A stretch of DNA of 55,760 nt, the filler included, from Squatina squatina (taxonomy: Eukaryota): the NCBI GenBank assembly GCA_031763465.1. It is 3 parts of 3 records of this genome, joined end to end, with 100 filler letters (N's around TTAATTAATTAA, not from the genome) between each part and the next. Parts side by side here need not be neighbours in the genome. Positions count along the whole stretch, not along the records: positions 27,257 to 41,544 come from JARFOE010000001.1; 2 more parts are not named here. The stretch is one strand, 5' to 3'. The notes below the pieces were generated by a model, which worked only from the letters and a program-made list of their open reading frames with translations, searched no databases and had not been told where the DNA came from. Numbering within the stretch: the first letter of the stretch is position 1; each line of letters starts with the position of its first letter. Shown here piece by piece: positions 10,318 through 47,717 of this stretch. The translations under genes and the position numbers were made by a program.

Positions 10318-10458
10318 AATATAGCTAATGAACTGGCCTCAACAGCTTCCTGTGGTAGAGAGTTCCACAGGTTCACCACTCTCTGGGTGAAAAGATTTTT
10401 CCTAATCTCGGTCCTAAATGGCTTCCCCCTTATCCTCAAACTGTGACCCCTGGTTCTT
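10318..10458 (-). mobile_element. CR1 LINE ORF2 C-terminal fragment
   Basis: TRGHSLRIRGKPFRTEIRKNLFTQRVVNLWNSLPQEAVEASSL is the canonical CR1 ORF2 C-terminal motif. Confidence 0.92.
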
Positions 10459-13400
10459 GAGCCAATCAGGTGCAAGTCTGACATACTTTACATATTTAAC
10501 ACTTTCAAATGTGACAGTAAAGCACCAGATGCAAGAGTTTTAGAATCAATAGATAAATTAATATTTGTGTCAGTGGGTGAGCTGAAAGCAAAACCAGCCA
10601 ACTCAGGAAGTTATTAATTTCCCTGGACATGCTGGTAATCTGAGGGTTAACATCCAAATTCAGTTTATCAGTGTTGATTTTCATGGGATACATAATGGTG
10701 GCATTCCAACTAATTTTATTTCCTTGTATGCAATGTGTTCTACTCCCTCAAGCTCTCTCACCTCTATGTGAAATCTTTGAATTAGGAGGACACAGTGGTT
10801 CATGCTAAGAACTTGTCAAATTCTGGCTCTATGATCAACTGACAGGAGATCCTTTGGTAATATTGCACACACCCACATTTGATGAGATGAATGATGTTAC
10901 TTTCTCTTGTGCTTGTCACTTTCGCAATGTCTCGTTTAATTTTCTTTCTGAATTGCTGATTAGATTTCTGGTTTGAGCCTTGTCTTTTTGTTCAATCTTT
11001 CTAAATACCCCTTTCCATATCTTTTATATACGTGCACTACTAATTATCGTCTGCAAAAGGAGCACTATTACTCACCACAAACATTTCCAACATTTTTTCG
11101 AAACTTCTACCACAAACAGATTCCTAATATATTTTCATTACAGTACATGGCACTGTATCTGTCCATTCCTAATTTTACTTTTATAGTTCTAACTTACTAG
11201 CCCTCTTGTATTCCCATTGGACCCTACATTCAGCAAATGTGTACAGATTACAATGGCTAATGGTCATAGCCGCAGCTGTAGTCTGTGCAGATTGGCCATT
11301 CTATGACCTGTGCTTAATGACTGATTCCCTTTGCATACAAATCAGCTGCCTTTGTTATTCAGACTGCCGATGATGTTTCTACCGTGTAGCTCATAAGGAC
11401 TCATTAAGTGATTTCACCTTATGGTCCCTTTAATTTTGTCAGGTGACATACCAGATGGTAAACACACTCACTGTCTCCAATAAAATGGATTATGCTGACA
11501 CTGTAGTCATGAATAAAGGACACAAGATGTGTTTCTATTTAAAACAACTCAAATTTATTGTGTGTGATGTTCATTACACAAATTTTGTGAGCCTTGTGCT
11601 TCTAGCTCAAATTAGTGTATGATACAGATGTAAAGGTCTTCATATTATATGGTAATGAGTATCCTTGGGTTTACTATACATTTAAGTATCCTGTGTGATC
11701 TATATTGGCTATTCTAAAACTCATTTAAGGCTCCATCAAATATTATCACTACAGAAGCCCAGGGGACAAGTCCAGCCATTGATAAAAGATGCAGAAAACT
11801 TAGTCAGAACAAAAATAGAGTATATTGTTAAGTTTTTTTCTACTTAAATNNNNNNNNNNNNNNNNNNNNNNNNNNNNNNNNNNNNNNNNNNNNNNNNNNN
11901 NNNNNNNNNNNNNNNNNNNNNNNNNNNNNNNNNNNNNNNNNNNNNNNNNCTCCAGTAAAGTCACAATTAGTTTTGCAGCATTCCCATGGCTGATAGGATT
12001 CCTGTTCTAATGAGAATTTCAATTCCCATAATTCTGACAGGAAACAGCTATACATAATATCCCATGGGTCTTTATAATATATTATGCTTACAATCTAGTT
12101 TAATAGTACAGAATTAAGTAAACTTAATTAGGTTTAAAAGATTAAAAAGAAGTTTAAATGATGTGCTGTATTCCTTAGTGGAAGAAAATAGAAGGAATTT
12201 ATTGGCAGAATGCTAATAAGAATGCTAGTATTGCAGCAGAAATCAATCCCTGAAAATGGGATGCAGTTATTAGTAGCATTAACAACTGTGACTTTCGTCA
12301 CTTCAGTCTGCAAACTGTGGAACAAATAGCTGTTCTGGAAGTAACACAAGGTTTACCCTGGCTACAAAAGATAGTGGAAGTGGTATTTAGTCTGTTATTT
12401 GGCACAGGGTTAAAGTGTCTATGCTTTTGACATTTTCTCCAAATCAATTTTGACTGAACAAGTTGTTACAGTAACTAGGTGNNNNNNNNNNNNNNNNNNN
12501 NNNNNNNNNNNNNNNNNNNNNNNNNNNNNNNNNNNNNNNNNNNNNNNNNNNNNNNNNNNNNNNNNNNNNNNNNNNNNNNNNTACTTTATGAGGACACCTA
12601 ATAACATGTACTCACAAACATCCTGATGATCTGTAATAAATACCTGGGGAGCTTTGACGTGCTACAATAATAATGATACCTCCAGAACTTGACCAAGCTT
12701 GGAAATACAATTCCAATTTGTGATATAAACCATGACTTCAGCCTATTTATTTCTAATTGGAATAGCCTTTGAGCAAACAGTTCACAAGTTGCTCAACGCA
12801 TTAAATTGCGTTTAACCTCAATGGTTCCTGATATGATTACCTGCTTGATGTCATTGAACTCATTTTCACCAATATGTGTTTTTATATTAAATCAGGTGTT
12901 CAGTAAGAAATACATTTGAACTGCTGCTATCCCAGAGGGAACACAAATTGCAGGTAATCACATTTCGTCATAGGTTTGTGTGAAGGTGAAACTTTGTTCC
13001 GCAAACTGCTTCCTTCAAATATGCTTATCTCACTGGTGTGTGCATTTTAATTTTTTAGTTTGTTAAATATGCGTTTTCAGTCTCCAGAAAAAAAAATCAG
13101 ATTCTCATGCTTTAGTGAAATTGCAAATGAAAAGCATAATTTTTAGAGCAATATTGTTCAAAACATTCAATACTACAATTGCATATTCAGAGAAATGTTT
13201 GCGAGATGTAATATGTTTATAAGTGTGTTTTTTTTAGTCGATGCAACATTTAACTTCTAATACTGTGGTCACACATTCAAATCCAATTTGGCTTTATCTA
13301 CTCAGGATACCTGAGGCATAATCTTTAAATTATTATTATGTGCCCTATGTTCAATAAACACTAGAAATGCAGGATTTCCACTGCTTATTTCTTCTATGCA

Positions 13401-27156: not shown

Positions 27157-27256
27157 NNNNNNNNNNNNNNNNNNNNNNNNNNNNNNNNNNNNNNNNNNNN
27201 TTAATTAATTAANNNNNNNNNNNNNNNNNNNNNNNNNNNNNNNNNNNNNNNNNNNN
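27157..27256. other. Artificial scaffold-joining spacer
   Basis: Exactly 44 N + TTAATTAATTAA (stop codons in all six frames) + 44 N = 100 bp. Confidence 0.97.
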
Positions 27257-27341: not shown

Positions 27342-28174
27342 CTGCATTTAGAAACAGTTACATTACCACTCAACAGGAACACAAGGAGGAATACTCAAGT
27401 TTAGACAAAATTGCACTTTGAAAAGCAGAATATATCATCTTACTTTAAATATCCACAGCTGCAAGAAGTATTAACTGCAAGCATATGATGTTCAATAACC
27501 ATGGACCCAATTCTGAAATGGTTCAGTTTCAATAGCTTTGAACAATTATTAAATTCTAAACACTATCTTTTTTTAAAATGTGAAACTCACTGAAGAGAGA
27601 TTATAACTTTGAAGCAGCTCAAAATCTTTCAGGATCTTAAACCATTGATCACAAAATTTATATTTTTTCTAAAAATCCAGTGTTATGCATAAATGTTTGC
27701 AGCAGTCCAAATATAATACTGAATTCCTGGCAATTTAATCCACAATTAAAAGGCCACTTTCATGGAGACCTGAAATAACATTTGAAGTATTACAATCTAG
27801 TAAGACCATATCTTCTGCATTTATAGACTTCTGGTTTTGAGAGAATATTTGGAGATTTATGAATGGTACAAAAACTATGCTGNNNNNNNNNNCAGTCAGG
27901 TTACAGATGAATCCTGAAATGTAATAACTCAATGAAGTGGGCTGGAAAAATGATATATTGTTAACAAAACACTACATTGATCTTCATAAAACCAAGAGAT
28001 GCATATTTTATGAAAAGAATAAAATGTTTTACAGTGTTGAAGGACTTCAAATATAGGTTGGGGGGTGGGGGGGGGAGGAAAGACCTTTAACCATGGCTAA
28101 GATTATACATATTCAGAAAAGAAACACACTTACTCTGAATTCCAAGATGTAAATTATGCAAGTTAATTTATTAC

Positions 28175-28388
28175 CTTGCAATAAAGGAACAATTATAGAT
28201 CACATTTTTTTCAACAAAAATTCCTTCGGACTCATCGGTTTCCACCATCTTTCCATCCTGATACCAGAGCACTTGCATGTCCTGGTCAATATAAGAAGCC
28301 ATACACTGGAAAGGGAGACTGTCTCCCTCAAACACCACCTGACGATGAGAAGGGGTCAGCTGAAAGGATGGCAGCTCAAGAGGAGCAT
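28175..28388 (-). CDS. ADGRA3: Adhesion GPCR A3 (GPR125), first Ig-domain exon (214 bp)
   Basis: Acceptor ttcttgcag| and donor AG|gtaata. DAPLELPSFQLTPSHRQVVFEGDSLPFQCMASYIDQDMQVLWYQDGKMVETDESEGIFVEKNVIYNCSFIA is nearly identical to remembered vertebrate ADGRA3. Confidence 0.95.
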
Positions 28389-28717
28389 CTGCAAGAACAA
28401 CAAAAATGTTAAAAATGAAACCCATTCCACACGTTTAGACTTGTTAGGTTACAGAATACAATAATGACACATTCATAAAATGCAAAATCAAATGCACAAA
28501 ACAACTGTGTGCTCATCTTGTGGCTTGAAACCATAGGACCTGAATCTATAAATACTGAGTTGAAACGACTATTAATATATAGGAACTGTAACTTAAACAA
28601 CAAAGTTTGAGAAACAAACTCGTTTTAATAGGCAACTGAAAAACTGAAAGAAAATCTACAAGATCTGAGATGTACAGTGAAATTATAGGAAAATTAATTT
28701 TTAGCTGCAAAGACTGA

Positions 28718-29192: not shown

Positions 29193-29986
29193 GGTATCTG
29201 TCATAAGCTTCCCTTTTTTTCTTTATCCTCCGCTGTAAACCCTTAACATCCAGGGGACTCTGGATTTGTTAGTCCCACCCTTTTTCTTTAAGGGAACATA
29301 CTTGCTCTGAATCCTCACCATCTCCTCCTTGAATGCCTCCCACTGCTCTGACACTGATTTACCTTCAATTAGCTGTTTCCAGTCAACTTTGGCTAAATCA
29401 CATCTCACCTTAATAAAATTGGCTTTTCCCCAATTTAGAAATTTTATTTCTGATCCATTTTTGTCCTCTTCCATAACTACCCTAAATCTAACTGAGTTAT
29501 GATCACCACCAACTAAGTCCTGAACCGCCCCCACTCTTGTCGGGCTTGCTACGTACTGGATAAAAATGTTCTCCTAAATGCATTTTAAGAATTCAGCTCC
29601 CTCTATACCTTTCACATTAAATCTATCCCAGTTAATACTGGGGGACGTTGAAATCCCCTACTATTACGGCTCTATTGCATTTCTCAGAGATCTGTCTACA
29701 GATTTGCTCTTCTACCTCCCTCTGACTGTTTGGTGGTCAATAGTACACCCCAAGCAGTGTGATGGCCTCTTTTTTGTTTTTCAGTTTGACCCATATGGCC
29801 CCATTTGATGATCCTTCTAAGATGTCATCCCTCCTCACAGCTGTAATTGCTTCTTTTATCAATATTGCAACCCCACCTCCTTGTTTGTCACCCTCTCTAT
29901 CTCCTCTGAAAACCCTGCAGCCAGGAATGTTGAGCTGCCATTCCTGCACTTCCTTCAGCTTTGTCTCTGAAATGGCTATAACATCA
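29193..29986 (-). mobile_element. CR1 LINE ORF2 fragment (APE endonuclease and linker)
   Basis: DVIAISET...WQLNIPGCRVFRGDREGDKQGGGVAILIK...ITLLGVYY, then GGDHNSVRF...LNWGKANF...WEAFKEEM. Confidence 0.93.
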
Positions 29987-30086
29987 NNNNNNNNNNNNNN
30001 NNNNNNNNNNNNNNNNNNNNNNNNNNNNNNNNNNNNNNNNNNNNNNNNNNNNNNNNNNNNNNNNNNNNNNNNNNNNNNNNNNNNNN

Positions 30087-30484
30087 ACATCCAGCGTGAT
30101 CCCACCACCACGCACATCTTCCCCTCCCCTCCCCTTCCAGCATTCCAAAGGGACCGCTCCCTCCGCAACACCCTGGTCCATTCCTCGATCACCCCCAGCA
30201 TCCCCTCCCCTTCCCACAGCACCATCCTGTGCAAGTGCAGGAGATGCAACACTTGTCCTTTTACCTCCTCCTTTCTCACTGTCCAAGGCTCCAAACACTC
30301 CTTCCAGGTGAAACAGTGATTTACTTCTACTTCTTTCAATTTAGTATACTGTACTCGCTGCTCACGATGCGGTCTCCTCTACATTGGGGAGACCAAATGC
30401 AGTTTGGATGATTGCTTTGCAGGACACCTTAATTCACTTTTCAAGGATTACCCTGAGATTCCAATTATCTGTCATTTTAATTCC
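30087..30484 (+). mobile_element. Penelope-like retroelement ORF C-terminus (Cys-rich linker and GIY-YIG endonuclease), with stop codon
   Basis: IQRDPTTTHIFPSPPLPAFQRDRSLRNTLVHS...CKCRRCNTCPF...FQVKQ*FTSTSFNLVYCTRCSRCGLLYIGETK. Confidence 0.9.
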
Positions 30485-30962
30485 ATTACAATATGCCCAT
30501 TCACATTTTGGGCATCCATATTAGATGACCTTCGTCTCTTCTGATGACAGGTCCCGGAATTGGTGGCAATGATGAGGAATAGGCAGAATGGCTCCTTAGC
30601 GTTACTCCATAGGAAAATCATCCCCCGTAGCAGAAGAGGTCAATTGTTTCTTTTTATTTCATATTTATATTAAGTGACAACAAGCTGCAGCAGGAAGAAG
30701 CAGTAAAGTAACAAGGATATAAGTCTGATGTTAACTGGGAGCACCACAGGAGCTCCAGATCCTCCTCCACATATGCAGTCACTAGGATGTATAAGCCCAC
30801 AAGATCTTATTTGAAAATCTCCCTGGAATTATGCGTAAGGAGGCCATAGTTCACTCTGGAAGCCTTGGAATAGCTTTGCTCCGTCCTACAGGTAGAACTG
30901 GAAAATTTCTTCGTCAAAACGTTGCTTAATTTCTTGGCTCATTCCAAGAGACAAAGGATCAG

Positions 30963-32263
30963 TCTGTTTCCAGTCCATTCTTGCTAAATCACATCTCACC
31001 TGAGTAAAATTGGCTTTTCACCAATCAAGAACTTTTCCACCTAGTCTATCTTTGTCCCTTTCCATAACTATGCAAAATCTAACTTAATTATGATCTCTCC
31101 CATTGATAACCCTTGCATCTGCCTAGCTTCATCCCCTAAATCTAAGTCCAGAACAGCCCCCTCTCATTTTGGGCTTGCTCCATATTGGCTAAAAAAGTAC
31201 TCCTGAATAATTCTGTACCCTCTATTCCTTTAACACTGATTGTATCCCAGTTAATGTTAGGGTAGTTGAAATCCCCTACTATTACCACCCTATTGATTTT
31301 GCAGTTCTCAGAAATTTGCTTACATATTTGCTCTTCTTTCTGCCTCTTTTATTTGGGGGTCTATAGTACTGTGATTGCCCCTTTTTTGTTCTTCAGTTCA
31401 ACCCATATGGCTTCATTTGATGATCCTTCTAATATATCATCTCTCTTCACAGCTGTAATTGTTTTTTTAATCAATATTGCGATCCCCCTCTCTATCTTGT
31501 CTGAACATTCCTGCAACCAGGAATGTTGAGTTGCCACTCCTGCCCTTCTTGCAGTCATGACTCATTAATAGCTATATCATACTCCCATGTGTCTATATGT
31601 ACCCTCAGCTCATCTGCCTTATTCCCTAGAACCCTTGCACTGAAGTATATACCATTTAGCACTGCCAAACTCCCTTGTTGTCTATTTTCTAGCCTTTGTT
31701 TCCTCCGCCTACCAAACCCACTTTGTAGTCTTCTGTCTTCCACTTCCATCTTTGCATCTCTCCCTTCTGAATCTACTCTCAGGTACCCATCCCCCTGCTA
31801 AGCTAGTTTAAACCCTCCCCAATAGCACTAGCAAACCCCACTGTAAGGACATTGGTCCCGGCCCTGTTGAGGCGCAACCCGTCCAGCTTGAGGTCCCACC
31901 TCCGCCAGAAACCGTCCCAATGCCTCAGGAATCTAAAGCCCTCCCTCCTGCACCATCTTTCCAGCCATGCATTCATCTGCTCTATCCCCCTGTTTCTGTA
32001 CTCACTACCTTGTGGCACCAGGAGTAATCCAGAGATTACTACCCTTGTGGTCCTGCTTTTTAATCTCTTTCCTAGCTCCCTAAAATCTGCCTGCAGGACC
32101 TCATCCCTCTTTCTACCAAGTCATTAGTACTGATATGGACCACAATCTCTGGCTGTTCACCCTCCCCCCTCAGAATGCCCTGCAGTCATTCAGTGACATC
32201 CTTGACCCTGGCACCAGGGAGGAAACATATCATCCTAGAGTCACGTCTGTGGCCACAGAAACA
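30963..32263 (-). mobile_element. CR1 LINE fragment spanning ORF1 (SGNH esterase domain) and ORF2 start (APE endonuclease)
   Basis: ORF1: CFLPGARVKDVTE...MNAWLERWCRREGFRFLRHWDGFWRRWDLKLDGLRLNRAGTNVL...GEGLN*. ORF2: IYFSARVLGNKADEL...YDIAI, then SSNEAIWVELKNKKGAIT. Several deletions and frameshifts. Confidence 0.93.
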
Positions 32264-36199: not shown

Positions 36200-36946
36200 T
36201 TGTTCTCGTTTGTGACTCAGGGGTACTTCTTGGTTTCCCTTGAGCAACTTAACGAGTAGAATACCAGTAGGGGTTTCCGAGTATAAGTACTTTGATGGAT
36301 ATCCTGGTGGATTTATTTTTGTTGGGTCTAATAGCTGAATCAGTTCCTCATCCTGATTAGCTGCCCTTTGTGCTCCAGTGATTACACTCATTTTGACAAA
36401 CCCCTCCTTAGGGGGTGTCATGCAGACCGAACGTTTTGCTTGTATGTCTGCAAGACTGTTGCCTTTCGAGTGCACTGTCCCAGTGGTATGCCCGTTTACA
36501 TGTATTACCTGACAATTTTGTTTCTCCATTCCAAAATGAAGAATTTCTCCCCACAATGACTTATATTTGATAGGTTTACCCTTGTGAGTAGTAAAGTTTG
36601 TTCGTTCCCAGAACACTAGGTCCTGGTTATATCCTCTTTTACAATAGTCGCTATCCGTGCAGATTCATGTGGGTTTAATAGGGCCTACCTGTTCTAAAGC
36701 ATACCTGCTTCAGCATATTGTGCTGTCTTTTGGCCAAGGGGTATGGACAGTAATTCTTCTGGACAAAAAGAATAGGAATCTCGAAACTATCCGAGACTAT
36801 CCCCATCCCAGCTGAGGACTGCTGGGATGTCCCGTCTTTAATTGTCATTGACGACCCATCACAGTAAATGACTTGATGGCATTCTGTGAGTGGCCGCATA
36901 GGCATTTGTTTGATGCCTTCTTCTGCATCATCATCCTCCATGATAG
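36200..36946 (-). mobile_element. pol: Endogenous foamy-virus-like retrovirus pol fragment (RNase H and integrase N-terminal extension), pseudogenised
   Basis: Reconstructed: VIYCDGSSMTIKDGTSQQSSAGMGIV / LLSIPLGQKTAQYAE / YALEQVGPIKPT*ICTDSDYCKRGYNQDLVFWERTNFTTHKGKPIKYKSLW...HVNGHTTGTVHSKGNSLADIQAK...NQDEELIQLLDPTKINPPGYPSKYLY. Collinear with remembered prototype foamy virus Pol. Two frameshifts and one TGA (36665-36667). Confidence 0.88.
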
Positions 36947-37046: not shown

Positions 37047-37431
37047 GCCTTCTGAAAATCCAAATACACCACATCCACTGGTTCCCCCTTATCTACTCTA
37101 CTAGTTACATCCTCAAAGAACTCTAATAGGTTTGTCAAACATGATTCCCCTTTCATAAATCCATGTTGACTTTGCCCAATCATTTTATTATTTTCTAAGT
37201 GTCCTGTTATCACATCCTTTATGATAGATTCTAGTATTTTCCCTACTACTAATGTCAGGCTAATAGGTCTGTATCCCTGTTTTCTCTCTCCCTCCTTTCT
37301 TAAATAGGGGTTACATTTGCTACCCTCCAATCCACGGGAACCGTTCCAGAATCTATAGAATTTTGGAAGATGACAACCAATGCATCCACTATCTCTATAG
37401 CCACCCCTTTCAAAACCCTGGGATGTAGGTC
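37047..37431 (-). mobile_element. CR1 LINE ORF2 reverse transcriptase fragment
   Basis: YRPISLTLVVGKILESIIKD...SQHGFMKGESCLTNLLEFFEDVTSRVDKGEPVDVVYLDFQK. Confidence 0.95.
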
Positions 37432-41544: not shown

Positions 41545-41644
41545 NNNNNNNNNNNNNNNNNNNNNNNNNNNNNNNNNNNNNNNNNNNNTTAATTAATTAA
41601 NNNNNNNNNNNNNNNNNNNNNNNNNNNNNNNNNNNNNNNNNNNN
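41545..41644. other. Artificial scaffold-joining spacer
   Basis: 44 N + TTAATTAATTAA (41589-41600) + 44 N, identical in design to 27157-27256. Confidence 0.97.
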
Positions 41645-41915: not shown

Positions 41916-42851
41916 GTCATTAATCTAAATTGTAAATAGTTGAGGCCCAAGCACGGATCCTTGTGAGACCCCACTAGTTACAGCCTGCCAACCGAAAATG
42001 ACCCATTTATCCCAGCTCTCTCTCTTCTGTCCGGTAACTAATCCTCTGTCCATACTAATATATTACCCCAACCCTATGAGCCCTTATCTTGCAAAGCAAC
42101 CTTTTATGTGGCACCTTATCGAATGCCTTTTGGAAATCCAGATATAATACATCCACTGGTTCCCCTTTATCTACCCTTGAGTTACATCCTCAAACAAATC
42201 TAATAAATATATTAATCAATATTTCCCTTTCATAAAATCAAGTTAACTGTGCCTAGTCACAATTTTCTGAATGCCCTGTTACCACTTCCTTAATAATGAA
42301 TTCCAGCATTTTCCCAACAACTGATATCAGGCTAACTGGTCTGTAGTTCCCTATTTTCTCTCTCCCTCCTTTCTTTAATAGCTGTGTTACATTTGCTACC
42401 TTTTCAATCTGCTGGGACTGTCTAGATTCTAGATCACAACCAATGCATCCACCATCTCTGCAACTATATCTTTTAGAATCCCAGGATGCAAGGGATCCAT
42501 CAGGTCCAAGGGATTTGTTGGCTTTTAGTCCCATTAGTTTCTCAAGTACTTTATCTCTACTGATATTAATTACTTGAAGTTCCTCACCCTCATTAGAGCC
42601 TTGGTTCCCCATTATTTTTGGTATGCTTGTTGCACCTTCTTCTGTGAAGACAGCAAAATATTTGTTTAACGGCTCTGCCATTATAATTTCTTCTGTCTCC
42701 GCCTCTAAGGGACCAAGGCTTACTTTTGCTCCTCTTACATGTTGTGGAAGCTCTTGCAATCTGTTTTTATATTTCTTGCTAGTTTACTCCTCTCTTTTCT
42801 CCCTTTTTATCAGTTTTTTTGGTCATCCTTTGTTGGTTTCTAAAGCTCTCT
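41916..42851 (-). mobile_element. CR1 LINE ORF2 fragment (tether and RT), degraded
   Basis: AEPLNKYFAVFTEE...VLEKLMGLKANKSLGPDG...KKGGREKIGNYRPVSLISVVGKMLE, followed by LDFQKAFDKVPHK and SGVSQGSVLGPQLFTI. Confidence 0.93.
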
Positions 42852-46655: not shown

Positions 46656-46840
46656 TCACAGTGTAACCTTGCTTCGTCTGTTCGTCAATATTCCCTTTTT
46701 GGCTGCTCTGGGTAGCGTCGAGCAGGATCGACTTCGCAGCTTAACCTGTCGGCTTGGGTTCCGCTTTCTCAGAATAAAGTCAAAATTCACAGAAGTGTTC
46801 ATAGCATAAAACACATTGGCATTGTCTGGAATCACCAACT
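46656..46840 (-). CDS. RGL1: Ral guanine nucleotide dissociation stimulator-like 1, last coding exon (end of Ras-association domain)
   Basis: Acceptor ctctgcctttcag|, phase 1. [61 protein letters not shown] matches the remembered RGL1 C-terminus (...NRHSKITL). Confidence 0.95.
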
Positions 46841-47345
46841 CTGAAAGGCAGAGGAAACATACATTGTTATTTACACATTTTCTTTTGATAAATGTTGACC
46901 GGATTAAGCATACAGATACAACCAGATACAGAATTATGAATGGCTGGGAGTAACCAGTGACCAGACTGTAATTTGTTGCGAGGTTTCAGAAAGTATTATA
47001 AACCACAAGAGAAAAGCTTGAAGGTTTACACTATCTTTGGATAGACTCAATAACTGAAAACAATTAAAAAAAAAGAAATACATTAAAACAGCCCATGATG
47101 TAGCACAAAACAAAGGAGAATGGCGAGTGTAGTAAATGGAAAATTTGGATTGGTGCTATTCGGAAGCTCAGTTTAAGACACCTTGTTGGAAGAGTTGATG
47201 GCAGTTACTGTACAGTCAACTTGTGCTAAATTGAGAGTCAATCATAATACCCCATTTCCCAGCATGCATTAGTCATGGTGATAATAAATCGGCACTGATG
47301 GCACTTCCCCAACAGTTCCACTTTATATAAATTAATTTTGAATAC

Positions 47346-47717
47346 CTGTGTTGCCCTACTCAGTGTCTCCTTCCTGTGTCCTACATTCTTTGACCCTTTC
47401 GCCTGCTGACTCTTCATGCTTGTAGAGACGGGAGAAGCATTCCTCATAGAGGTAGAAGGCTGAAATCCAACCCTGGAAGAGGCAGCAGTTTGTTTTGCAG
47501 AGACCGTGGACCTTAGCTGAGATCTTCCCGTGTTGGTTGCCACTTTCTTACTAGTAACGCTGGTGTAAGTGGTCGCCACTTTGCTTACAGATCTAGCTGC
47601 AGATCCCCTTCGCGTTAAAGCTTGAGGCTTCGTTGGAGGCGGGTGGCTTGGAGCATTTTTGATGAAATCAGCTAGAGGAGGCGATCGCGGTCGCTGGCTA
47701 CTTGCAGATGACTGATC
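47346..47717 (-). CDS. Candidate 372-bp phase 0-0 exon encoding a Ser/Thr/basic low-complexity segment; assignment uncertain
   Basis: Acceptor tttgtgtgtag| and donor CAG|gtattc. 124 open codons, DQSSASSQRPRSPPLADFIKNAPSHPPPTKPQ...KETLSRATQ. GC is higher than in the flanking intron. Confidence 0.5.

What the first reader, a model, noticed from the sequence alone, without database searches (positions are those of the whole stretch)
36200..36946. Endogenous foamy-virus-like pol fossil in a probable shark genome
Seen: a 747-bp contig, gapped on both sides, encodes on the minus strand an RNase H with all four catalytic acidic residues (YCDGS, TAQYAE, ICTDS, NSLAD). It is broken by two frameshifts and a TGA. 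Known: the motifs AGMGIV, SIPLG..TAQ.AE, L.FW...F....KP.K...W, H..GH and H..GN.LAD follow prototype foamy virus Pol as I recall it. So does the downstream DEELIQLL...GYPSKYLY (PFV [22 protein letters not shown]), the integrase N-terminal extension domain, which argues for Spumaretrovirinae over Gypsy or class I ERVs. Foamy-like ERVs are rare but have been reported in fish, amphibians and the elephant shark. Inference: this may be an undescribed elasmobranch lineage relevant to the marine origin of foamy viruses, with the rest of the provirus hidden in the gaps.
Basis: partly seen in the sequence, partly recalled or inferred. Interest (0 to 1): 0.85.

Follow-up and report, generated by a model that had tools for sequence, protein, structure and literature searches.

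The report
Dead foamy-virus gene fragment, likely shark
This is a 747-base scrap of a broken foamy-virus pol gene (RNase H plus the start of integrase) in a vertebrate genome, likely a shark's or ray's; related copies occur in other animals, and since shark and ray foamy-virus fossils were named in 2023 it is likely a further member of a known kind, not a first.

Summary
The 747-bp contig encodes, on the minus strand, a retroviral RNase H with all four acidic residues, then a linker and the integrase N-terminal extension (NED), broken by two frame changes and a TGA. It is foamy-type: foamy Pols score 78-119 bits against at most 49 for other retroviruses; the NED scores 29.5 bits on a foamy profile, 0 of 2000 shuffles as high; an RH+NED tree puts it with foamy viruses at 100/100, outside the mammalian clade. 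The RH-only test was weaker (AU p 0.15). Related copies lie in 4 of 4 runs laid, about 8-15% diverged, possibly hundreds in one organism. The novelty claim is weak: endogenous foamy viruses of a catshark, a sawfish and a skate are already named, from a 2023 paper that I could not read or compare. The shark host is inferred, not tested. No other viral gene or primer site is in the window, and the gaps look like arbitrary joins. Verdict: real foamy fossil, new member of a known kind; a distinct lineage is possible (0.3).

The parts
36200..36946 (-). Whole contig: decayed fragment of a foamy-virus pol gene (end of connection region, RNase H, linker, integrase NED); cut by assembly gaps at both ends
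36771..36944 (-). Frame piece 1: end of the connection region and RNase H strands 1-2, first catalytic Asp (YCDGS, Asp at 36860-36858), AGMGIV
36709..36768 (-). Frame piece 2: SIPLG..TAQYAE, catalytic Glu at 36711-36709
36430..36703 (-). Frame piece 3, RNase H part: Asp of ICTDS (36655-36653), C-helix and basic loop like foamy RH, HVNGH, Asp of NSLAD (36448-36446)
36665..36667 (-). In-frame TGA inside RNase H
36355..36429 (-). RNase H-integrase linker, about 12 residues longer than in mammalian foamy viruses and closer in length to amphibian foamy ERVs; holds the likely protease cleavage site (inferred from alignment)
36200..36354 (-). Integrase N-terminal extension domain (DEELIQLL...PPGYPSKYLY...), cut by the gap just before the zinc-finger

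Best explanation
The contig is a dead piece of the pol gene of an endogenous foamy virus, likely in a shark or ray and likely a member or close relative of the cartilaginous-fish endogenous foamy viruses named in 2023. Shown: foamy-type RNase H plus integrase NED, three lesions, related copies in other organisms. Inferred mechanism: an ancient foamy virus made Pol whose RNase H degraded the RNA strand during reverse transcription and whose integrase, cut off at the linker by the viral protease, inserted the provirus in a germ cell. The family spread in the germ line of an ancestor (or of several relatives) by reinfection or retrotransposition, to a few copies in some lineages and possibly hundreds in one. 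This copy then lost function and has decayed neutrally; it would make no working enzyme today.
For: Read through with X at the breaks, it matches 54 of 113 columns invariant in 12 exogenous foamy Pols, 33-37% identity over 221-222 columns. tblastn on 93 retroviral loci: all 28 foamy loci (17 distinct contigs) 78-119 bits; 11 other loci 22-49 bits; 54 no hit; 76 Gypsy/caulimovirus-type loci at most 26.6 bits, E 0.58. Among 167 stored proteins the top 31 are foamy Pols or amphibian foamy-like proteins (two of them unnamed), best equine foamy virus 120 bits, 37%; then a drop to 64 bits. NED: 29.5 bits on a profile of 17 foamy NEDs, best of 2000 shuffles 10.5; gamma profile 0.9, epsilon no score; that region is PFV integrase residues 4-57. 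Trees: with foamy at 97/91, 93/88, 100/100; AU rejects nesting with gamma (p 9e-6) or epsilon (p 3e-5). Neutral decay: 29 listed differences to other copies fall 8/11/10 on codon positions 1/2/3. Family: 26, 3, 82 and 636 contigs laid in runs X1, X5, X6, X10; 4, 0, 7 and 19 run past the contig ends. Divergence of ERV pieces 0.10-0.15 against 0.09-0.11 for host DNA of the same three organisms. Prior art.
Against: The RH-only AU test did not reject a place with gamma plus epsilon (p 0.15); with long rows included the join to foamy viruses had only 92/59 and the base was open. RH and integrase trees are known to be unreliable and these domains were swapped in retroviral history (PMC9040795; PMC8922424); RT, the defining marker, is missing. 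The 87-residue C-terminal part alone did not find PFV integrase in the PDB at E up to 10. No lokiretrovirus, ERV-L/S, coelacanth, chimaera or published shark sequence could be put in the comparison, and the 150 library hits were picked by a foamy-built profile. No chondrichthyan protein was among 21 named of 30 looked up. The host class was not tested. The 29 differences are the best-supported rows of a cut table (203 rows not shown).
Confidence: 0.6

Rival explanations
1. Same foamy fossil, but a lineage distinct from all published shark and ray elements: a further deep branch, shared by several host species and strongly amplified in one.
For: Long own branch (1.3-1.5), outside the mammal plus spadefoot clade (95/99) and the newt clade (98/96); no relative above 39% identity in a library of 1.84 billion representatives; run X10 has about 780 times the depth of a host locus against 7-8 times in X1 and X6.
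Against: Broken ERVs rarely enter protein libraries, so the blank says little; four elasmobranch elements are already named and could not be compared; a family shared this widely would probably have been met in a genome screen; the tool states that summed contig depth is no copy number.
Confidence: 0.28
2. It belongs to the more distant foamy-like fish group (teleost FLERVs, chimaera CmiFLERV, catshark ERV-Spuma.0-Sca) rather than to the group with tetrapod foamy viruses.
For: S. canicula holds 293 elements of a Spuma ERV that groups with teleost FLERVs (PMC10699275), which would fit a high-copy relative; a teleost protein fell near the query with weak support (88/50).
Against: The one teleost foamy-like protein at hand (P0049, Coilia grayii; FLERV status inferred from its RT motif) is only 22% identical and lacks the GYP-type NED, while the query shares GMGIV, SIPLG and PPGYP.KY with mammalian, bird and frog foamy viruses.
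Confidence: 0.06
3. It is a non-foamy retroelement with a similar RNase H (lokiretrovirus, ERV-L/S, class I ERV, or a Gypsy element with an added RH), or a recombinant carrying a foamy RH-integrase on another RT.
For: RH was replaced several times in retroviruses; RH-only AU p 0.15; loki and ERV-L/S were not in the set.
Against: Score gap of 30-70 bits to class I and to the snakehead-type genome; NED specific to foamy; Pfam gives RNase_H, not the Gypsy-type RT_RNaseH, at E up to 1; AU rejections with RH+NED.
Confidence: 0.04
4. The contig is contamination or misplacement (DNA of another animal or a laboratory foamy vector).
For: It is isolated by gaps in a pieced-together scaffold.
Against: Only 33-38% identical to exogenous foamy viruses and broken three times; the three organisms that hold related copies also hold the window's RGL1-region host DNA at 89-91%; CpG-depleted like the window (0.42 against 0.33). 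Misplacement within the right genome stays possible.
Confidence: 0.02

Closest known systems
Cartilaginous-fish endogenous foamy viruses: ERV-Spuma.a-Sto, ERV-Spuma.b-Sto (Scyliorhinus torazame), ERV-Spuma-Ppe (Pristis pectinata), ERV-Spuma-Ara (Amblyraja radiata); Wang, Chen, Cui 2023, J Virol, PMID 36651746
   Same: Foamy ERVs in elasmobranchs; the paper's title says they root to vertebrate foamy viruses, which fits the query's place outside the tetrapod clades.
   Different: Not comparable here: I saw the title in reference lists and the names and RT rows in another paper's supplement ('Ref. 8', which I take to be this paper); the text is not held and no RH-integrase sequence was visible.
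Exogenous mammalian foamy viruses (equine, bovine, feline, simian), Pol RNase H and integrase NED
   Same: All four catalytic residues, GMGIV, SIPLG..TAQ.AE, basic loop, GH, GN..AD, and D.EL...L....P.GYP.KY; best hit equine foamy virus, 37%, 120 bits.
   Different: Only 30-38% identical; linker about 12 residues longer; outside their clade; broken and endogenous.
Amphibian endogenous foamy viruses (Spea, Pelodytes, Lissotriton, Pleurodeles, Hyperolius proteins P0017-P0032)
   Same: 27-35% identity for most, longer linker with a V-T-R/G-like integrase start, GYP/GFP NED.
   Different: Not sister to the newt or the spadefoot clade with support.
CmiFLERV (Callorhinchus milii; PMC5512871) and ERV-Spuma.0-Sca (S. 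canicula; PMC10699275)
   Same: Foamy-like ERVs of cartilaginous fish, pol-only in the chimaera.
   Different: Reported basal with ray-finned fish FLERVs; the query looks closer to tetrapod foamy viruses by motif; sequences not compared.

Membership tests
Spumaretrovirinae (foamy viruses, incl. endogenous) | RNase H closest to foamy RNase H | tested here: met
   trees 76, 89, 119 (RH alone: AU p 0.15, so the tree part is weak)
Spumaretrovirinae (foamy viruses, incl. endogenous) | Integrase NED of foamy sequence type directly after RNase H | tested here: met
   29.5 bits against shuffle maximum 10.5; gamma 0.9, epsilon none
Spumaretrovirinae (foamy viruses, incl. endogenous) | RT groups with foamy viruses | not testable with these tools
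   RT is not in the window; no genome held
Spumaretrovirinae (foamy viruses, incl. endogenous) | Foamy gag, env, accessory genes, separate pol frame, LTRs, internal promoter | not testable with these tools
   73 retroviral ORFs against the window hit only this contig; the contig ends inside pol
Spumaretrovirinae (foamy viruses, incl. endogenous) | tRNA-Lys1,2 primer-binding site | tested here: inconclusive
   Motif (recalled) is in 12 of 12 foamy genomes, 0 matches in the window at 3 mismatches; the 5' end of the provirus is simply not in the window
Cartilaginous-fish endogenous foamy viruses (Wang, Chen, Cui 2023) | Host is a cartilaginous fish | tested here: inconclusive
   Vertebrate shown (RGL1/RalGDS-type exon); shark or ray inferred from recalled look of the LINE and Penelope-like repeats; run organisms are coded
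Cartilaginous-fish endogenous foamy viruses (Wang, Chen, Cui 2023) | Sequence groups with ERV-Spuma-Sto/Ppe/Ara | not testable with these tools
   Paper not held; only RT rows seen
Class I ERVs (gamma, epsilon) | RH and NED group with gamma or epsilon | tested here: not met
Ty3/Gypsy and caulimovirus-type elements | RT_RNaseH-type RNase H | tested here: not met
   Pfam PF00075, no PF17917 at E up to 1; 76 motif loci, best E 0.58 (mostly caulimovirus-sized genomes)
Lokiretroviruses and ERV-L/ERV-S | RH and integrase group with these lineages | not tested
   No named sequence could be fetched; only a snakehead-retrovirus-sized genome (L090, 29 bits) stood in for that side

The most novel reading that the evidence does not exclude
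A previously unnamed deep foamy-virus lineage of sharks, close to tetrapod foamy viruses in RNase H and integrase, inherited by at least four host lineages since roughly 90-120 million years ago and amplified to hundreds of germ-line copies in one of them.
Probability: 0.25. Interest if true: 0.58.

Novelty: new member of a known kind. Interest (0 to 1): 0.33.

Why it matters
Foamy viruses are the main clock for the age of retroviruses, and cartilaginous fish are the deepest jawed-vertebrate branch, so each shark lineage tests co-divergence against host jumps. That point was already made in 2017 and 2023, so this fragment adds a data point, not a first. What could be new is the spread of one family over several species and its uneven copy number, which would allow dating by orthologous insertions.

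Tried and rejected
No genome held, so copy number, gag, RT, env and LTRs could not be sought. Word-index protein searches with the 155-residue piece found nothing; with alignment A1 they gave 14 named foamy Pols, one unnamed and one fungal RNase H, no fish protein. The search for related loci found nothing in viral or metagenome contigs. AlphaFold model of the 155-residue piece (pLDDT 75.9, pTM 0.42) and its Foldseek hits (foamy RH top 5) are not independent, since the alignment was foamy; no integrase match appeared among the rows listed. Atlas search on the equine homologue gave only generic RNase H clusters. Earlier findings: none. Rfam: none. Supplements: RH region cut in PMC6955096, no sequences found in PMC5512871 or PMC10699275, PMC5210030 not searchable; unseen supplements of the 2023 paper bear directly on novelty. 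Literature searches for shark foamy ERVs; none gave the text of the 2023 paper. Rejected: Gypsy, class I ERV, host RNase H1 (intronless, followed by integrase NED), vector contamination. Tree rows left out: 5 loci without a found RH motif and one row trimmed short; 10 of 30 rows, mostly long ones. A Lyase_8_N hit at 2157-2396 was dropped as chance (below cut-off, no PDB match).

Full report
Observation. The window is a chain of 47 small contigs; the finding is the 747-bp contig 36200-36946 between two 100-N gaps. On the minus strand three frame pieces carry, in order, YCDGS and AGMGIV, then SIPLG and TAQYAE, then ICTDS, HVNGH, NSLAD, DEELIQ and GYPSK, with a TGA at 36667-36665. The long 3' piece is Pfam RNase_H (42.6 bits, E 8.9e-11) and does not hit the Gypsy-type RT_RNaseH model at E up to 1. 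Its five best PDB hits of 51 are foamy RNase H or PR-RT chains; murine leukaemia virus chains come at E 0.016 or worse. The 5' piece alone finds 4 chains, all foamy, weakly.

What it is. I fetched natural retroviral genomes from IMG/VR by motif; the loci carry no names, and my genus labels rest on RT motifs, genome lengths (recalled) and five length matches to named Pols. Read through with X at the breaks, the peptide matches 54 of 113 columns invariant in 12 foamy Pols and is 33-37% identical to them. In a tblastn on 93 loci, all 28 foamy loci scored 78-119 bits, 11 others 22-49 bits (gamma 49, epsilon 38-40, a snakehead-retrovirus-sized genome 29) and 54 gave no hit; 76 Gypsy/caulimovirus-type loci reached at most 26.6 bits. 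The stretch after RNase H aligns to what is PFV integrase 4-57. Alone it did not find PFV integrase in the PDB, but it scores 29.5 bits on a profile of 17 foamy NEDs, above all 2000 shuffles (maximum 10.5), and 0.9 or nothing on gamma and epsilon profiles.

Wider relatives and trees. A profile search of 1.84 billion representatives gave 12 proteins at E up to 1e-30 and 217 at 1e-10. Of 30 looked up, 21 are named: 19 amphibian, one teleost, one ctenophore, none from a shark or ray. Against 167 stored proteins the top 31 hits are foamy Pols and amphibian foamy-like proteins, led by equine foamy virus (120 bits, 37%); this set was chosen by a foamy-built profile, so it cannot exclude unseen rivals. 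RH-only trees join the query to mammalian foamy viruses at 97/91 (33 rows) and 93/88 (22 rows), but the AU test there did not reject a place with gamma plus epsilon (p 0.15). With RH plus NED and long rows kept, the base was open and the join had 92/59 (30 rows). With 10 rows left out, the query lies on the foamy side at 100/100, on its own branch outside the mammal plus spadefoot clade (95/99) and the newt clade (98/96); nesting with gamma or epsilon is rejected (p 9e-6, 3e-5). RH and integrase trees are known to be unreliable (PMC9040795, parts 1-2 of 4 read; PMC8922424, passages), and RT is missing. I put the foamy call at about 0.94.

State of this copy and of the family. Ten of 13 listed runs hold part of the stretch, in 4 studies and three coded organisms plus one unlabelled. 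I laid 4 of them: 26, 3, 82 and 636 contigs fit, mostly at 80-95%, and 4, 0, 7 and 19 run past the ends, so related copies continue beyond this contig. They differ from this copy at its lesions, which suggests that these are its own. Twenty-nine listed differences in the long piece fall 8/11/10 on the three codon positions, as expected for neutral decay; the table was cut. The same three organisms hold the window's RGL1-region DNA at 9-11% difference, against 10-15% for the viral pieces. At the rate assumed for catshark in PMC10699275 (0.5e-9 per site and year) that host distance is about 90-120 Myr; this is an inference, not a minimum age, because no shared insertion site was shown. Summed depth on the viral stretch is about 7, 8 and 780 times that of the host locus in X1, X6 and X10; the tool warns that this is no copy number, so a large amplification in organism C is a lead only.

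Surroundings. Seventy-three retroviral ORFs, including foamy Gag, Env and accessory proteins, hit only this contig; the foamy primer-site motif, present in 12 of 12 foamy genomes, is absent. The window holds an RGL1/RalGDS-type exon near 46.7-46.85 kb, an Ig-domain exon at 28174-28434 (I recall it as ADGRA3, untested), LINE pieces and two linker spacers inside gaps. Neighbours across the gaps are therefore not reliable, and nothing shows that the rest of the provirus lies in them. The host is a vertebrate; shark or ray is my inference from the recalled look of its repeats (about 0.9).

How it works. Shown: anatomy, foamy affinity, lesions, family. Inferred from foamy virus biology: Pol was cut at the linker into PR-RT-RH and integrase; RNase H removed the RNA strand, integrase inserted the provirus in the germ line; the family multiplied, and this copy died and drifted.

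Prior art. Chimaera FLERVs, pol only, were reported in 2017 (PMC5512871, passages); Han 2015 found snakehead-like and epsilon-like ERVs in the same species (PMC4422223, part 1 of 2). A catshark Spuma ERV with 293 elements, grouping with teleost FLERVs, appeared in 2023 (PMC10699275, parts 1-2 of 4). [quoted passage not shown] The supplement of PMC10581153 (parts 3 and 10 and search rows) lists endogenous foamy viruses of Scyliorhinus torazame (two types), Pristis pectinata and Amblyraja radiata with RT rows only, so no comparison with this RH-NED piece was possible. Bird, frog and sloth elements in that supplement share the P.GY NED motif. The one teleost foamy-like protein at hand lacks it, which leans away from the FLERV group.

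Verdict. Most likely a member or near relative of the published elasmobranch group (0.6), possibly a separate lineage (0.28). Interest 0.33.

Noticed in passing
window 46659-46985, minus strand: Exon for the end of a Ras-association domain, closest to RGL1/RalGDS; orthologous DNA, non-coding parts included, is in runs X1, X6, X10 at about 9-11% difference.
   Followed up: partly
window 28174-28434, minus strand: Ig-domain exon; I recall the sequence as ADGRA3/GPR125, a gene unlinked to RGL1 in other vertebrates, which suggests that the scaffold joins unrelated contigs. Untested.
   Followed up: partly
window 27201-27212 and 41589-41600: The 12-mer TTAATTAATTAA between two runs of 44 N: an assembly linker, not genomic DNA.
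   Followed up: no
window 29226-32120, 37049-37429, 42256-42783, 10320-10487: LINE fragments: endonuclease, RT and a GDSL-esterase ORF1 piece; CR1-like by recall. A Penelope-like stretch near 30087-30408 is recalled only.
   Followed up: partly
run X10 (organism C) on window 36200-36946: 636 contigs laid and about 780 times the depth of a host locus, against 7-8 times in two other organisms: possible large amplification of this foamy family.
   Followed up: partly
protein P0027 (unnamed Logan record, 1687 aa, contig 10956 bases): An open foamy-type polyprotein with RT, RH and GYP-type NED on a deep branch of its own; source unnamed.
   Followed up: partly
proteins P0017-P0032, P0051, P0152: Many amphibian foamy ERV proteins are filed as uncharacterised or 'Gypsy retrotransposon integrase-like' in public sets.
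   Followed up: no
window 47241-47717, minus strand: A 159-codon Ser/Thr/Lys-rich open frame just upstream of the RGL1-type exon, no Pfam match; unexplained.
   Followed up: no
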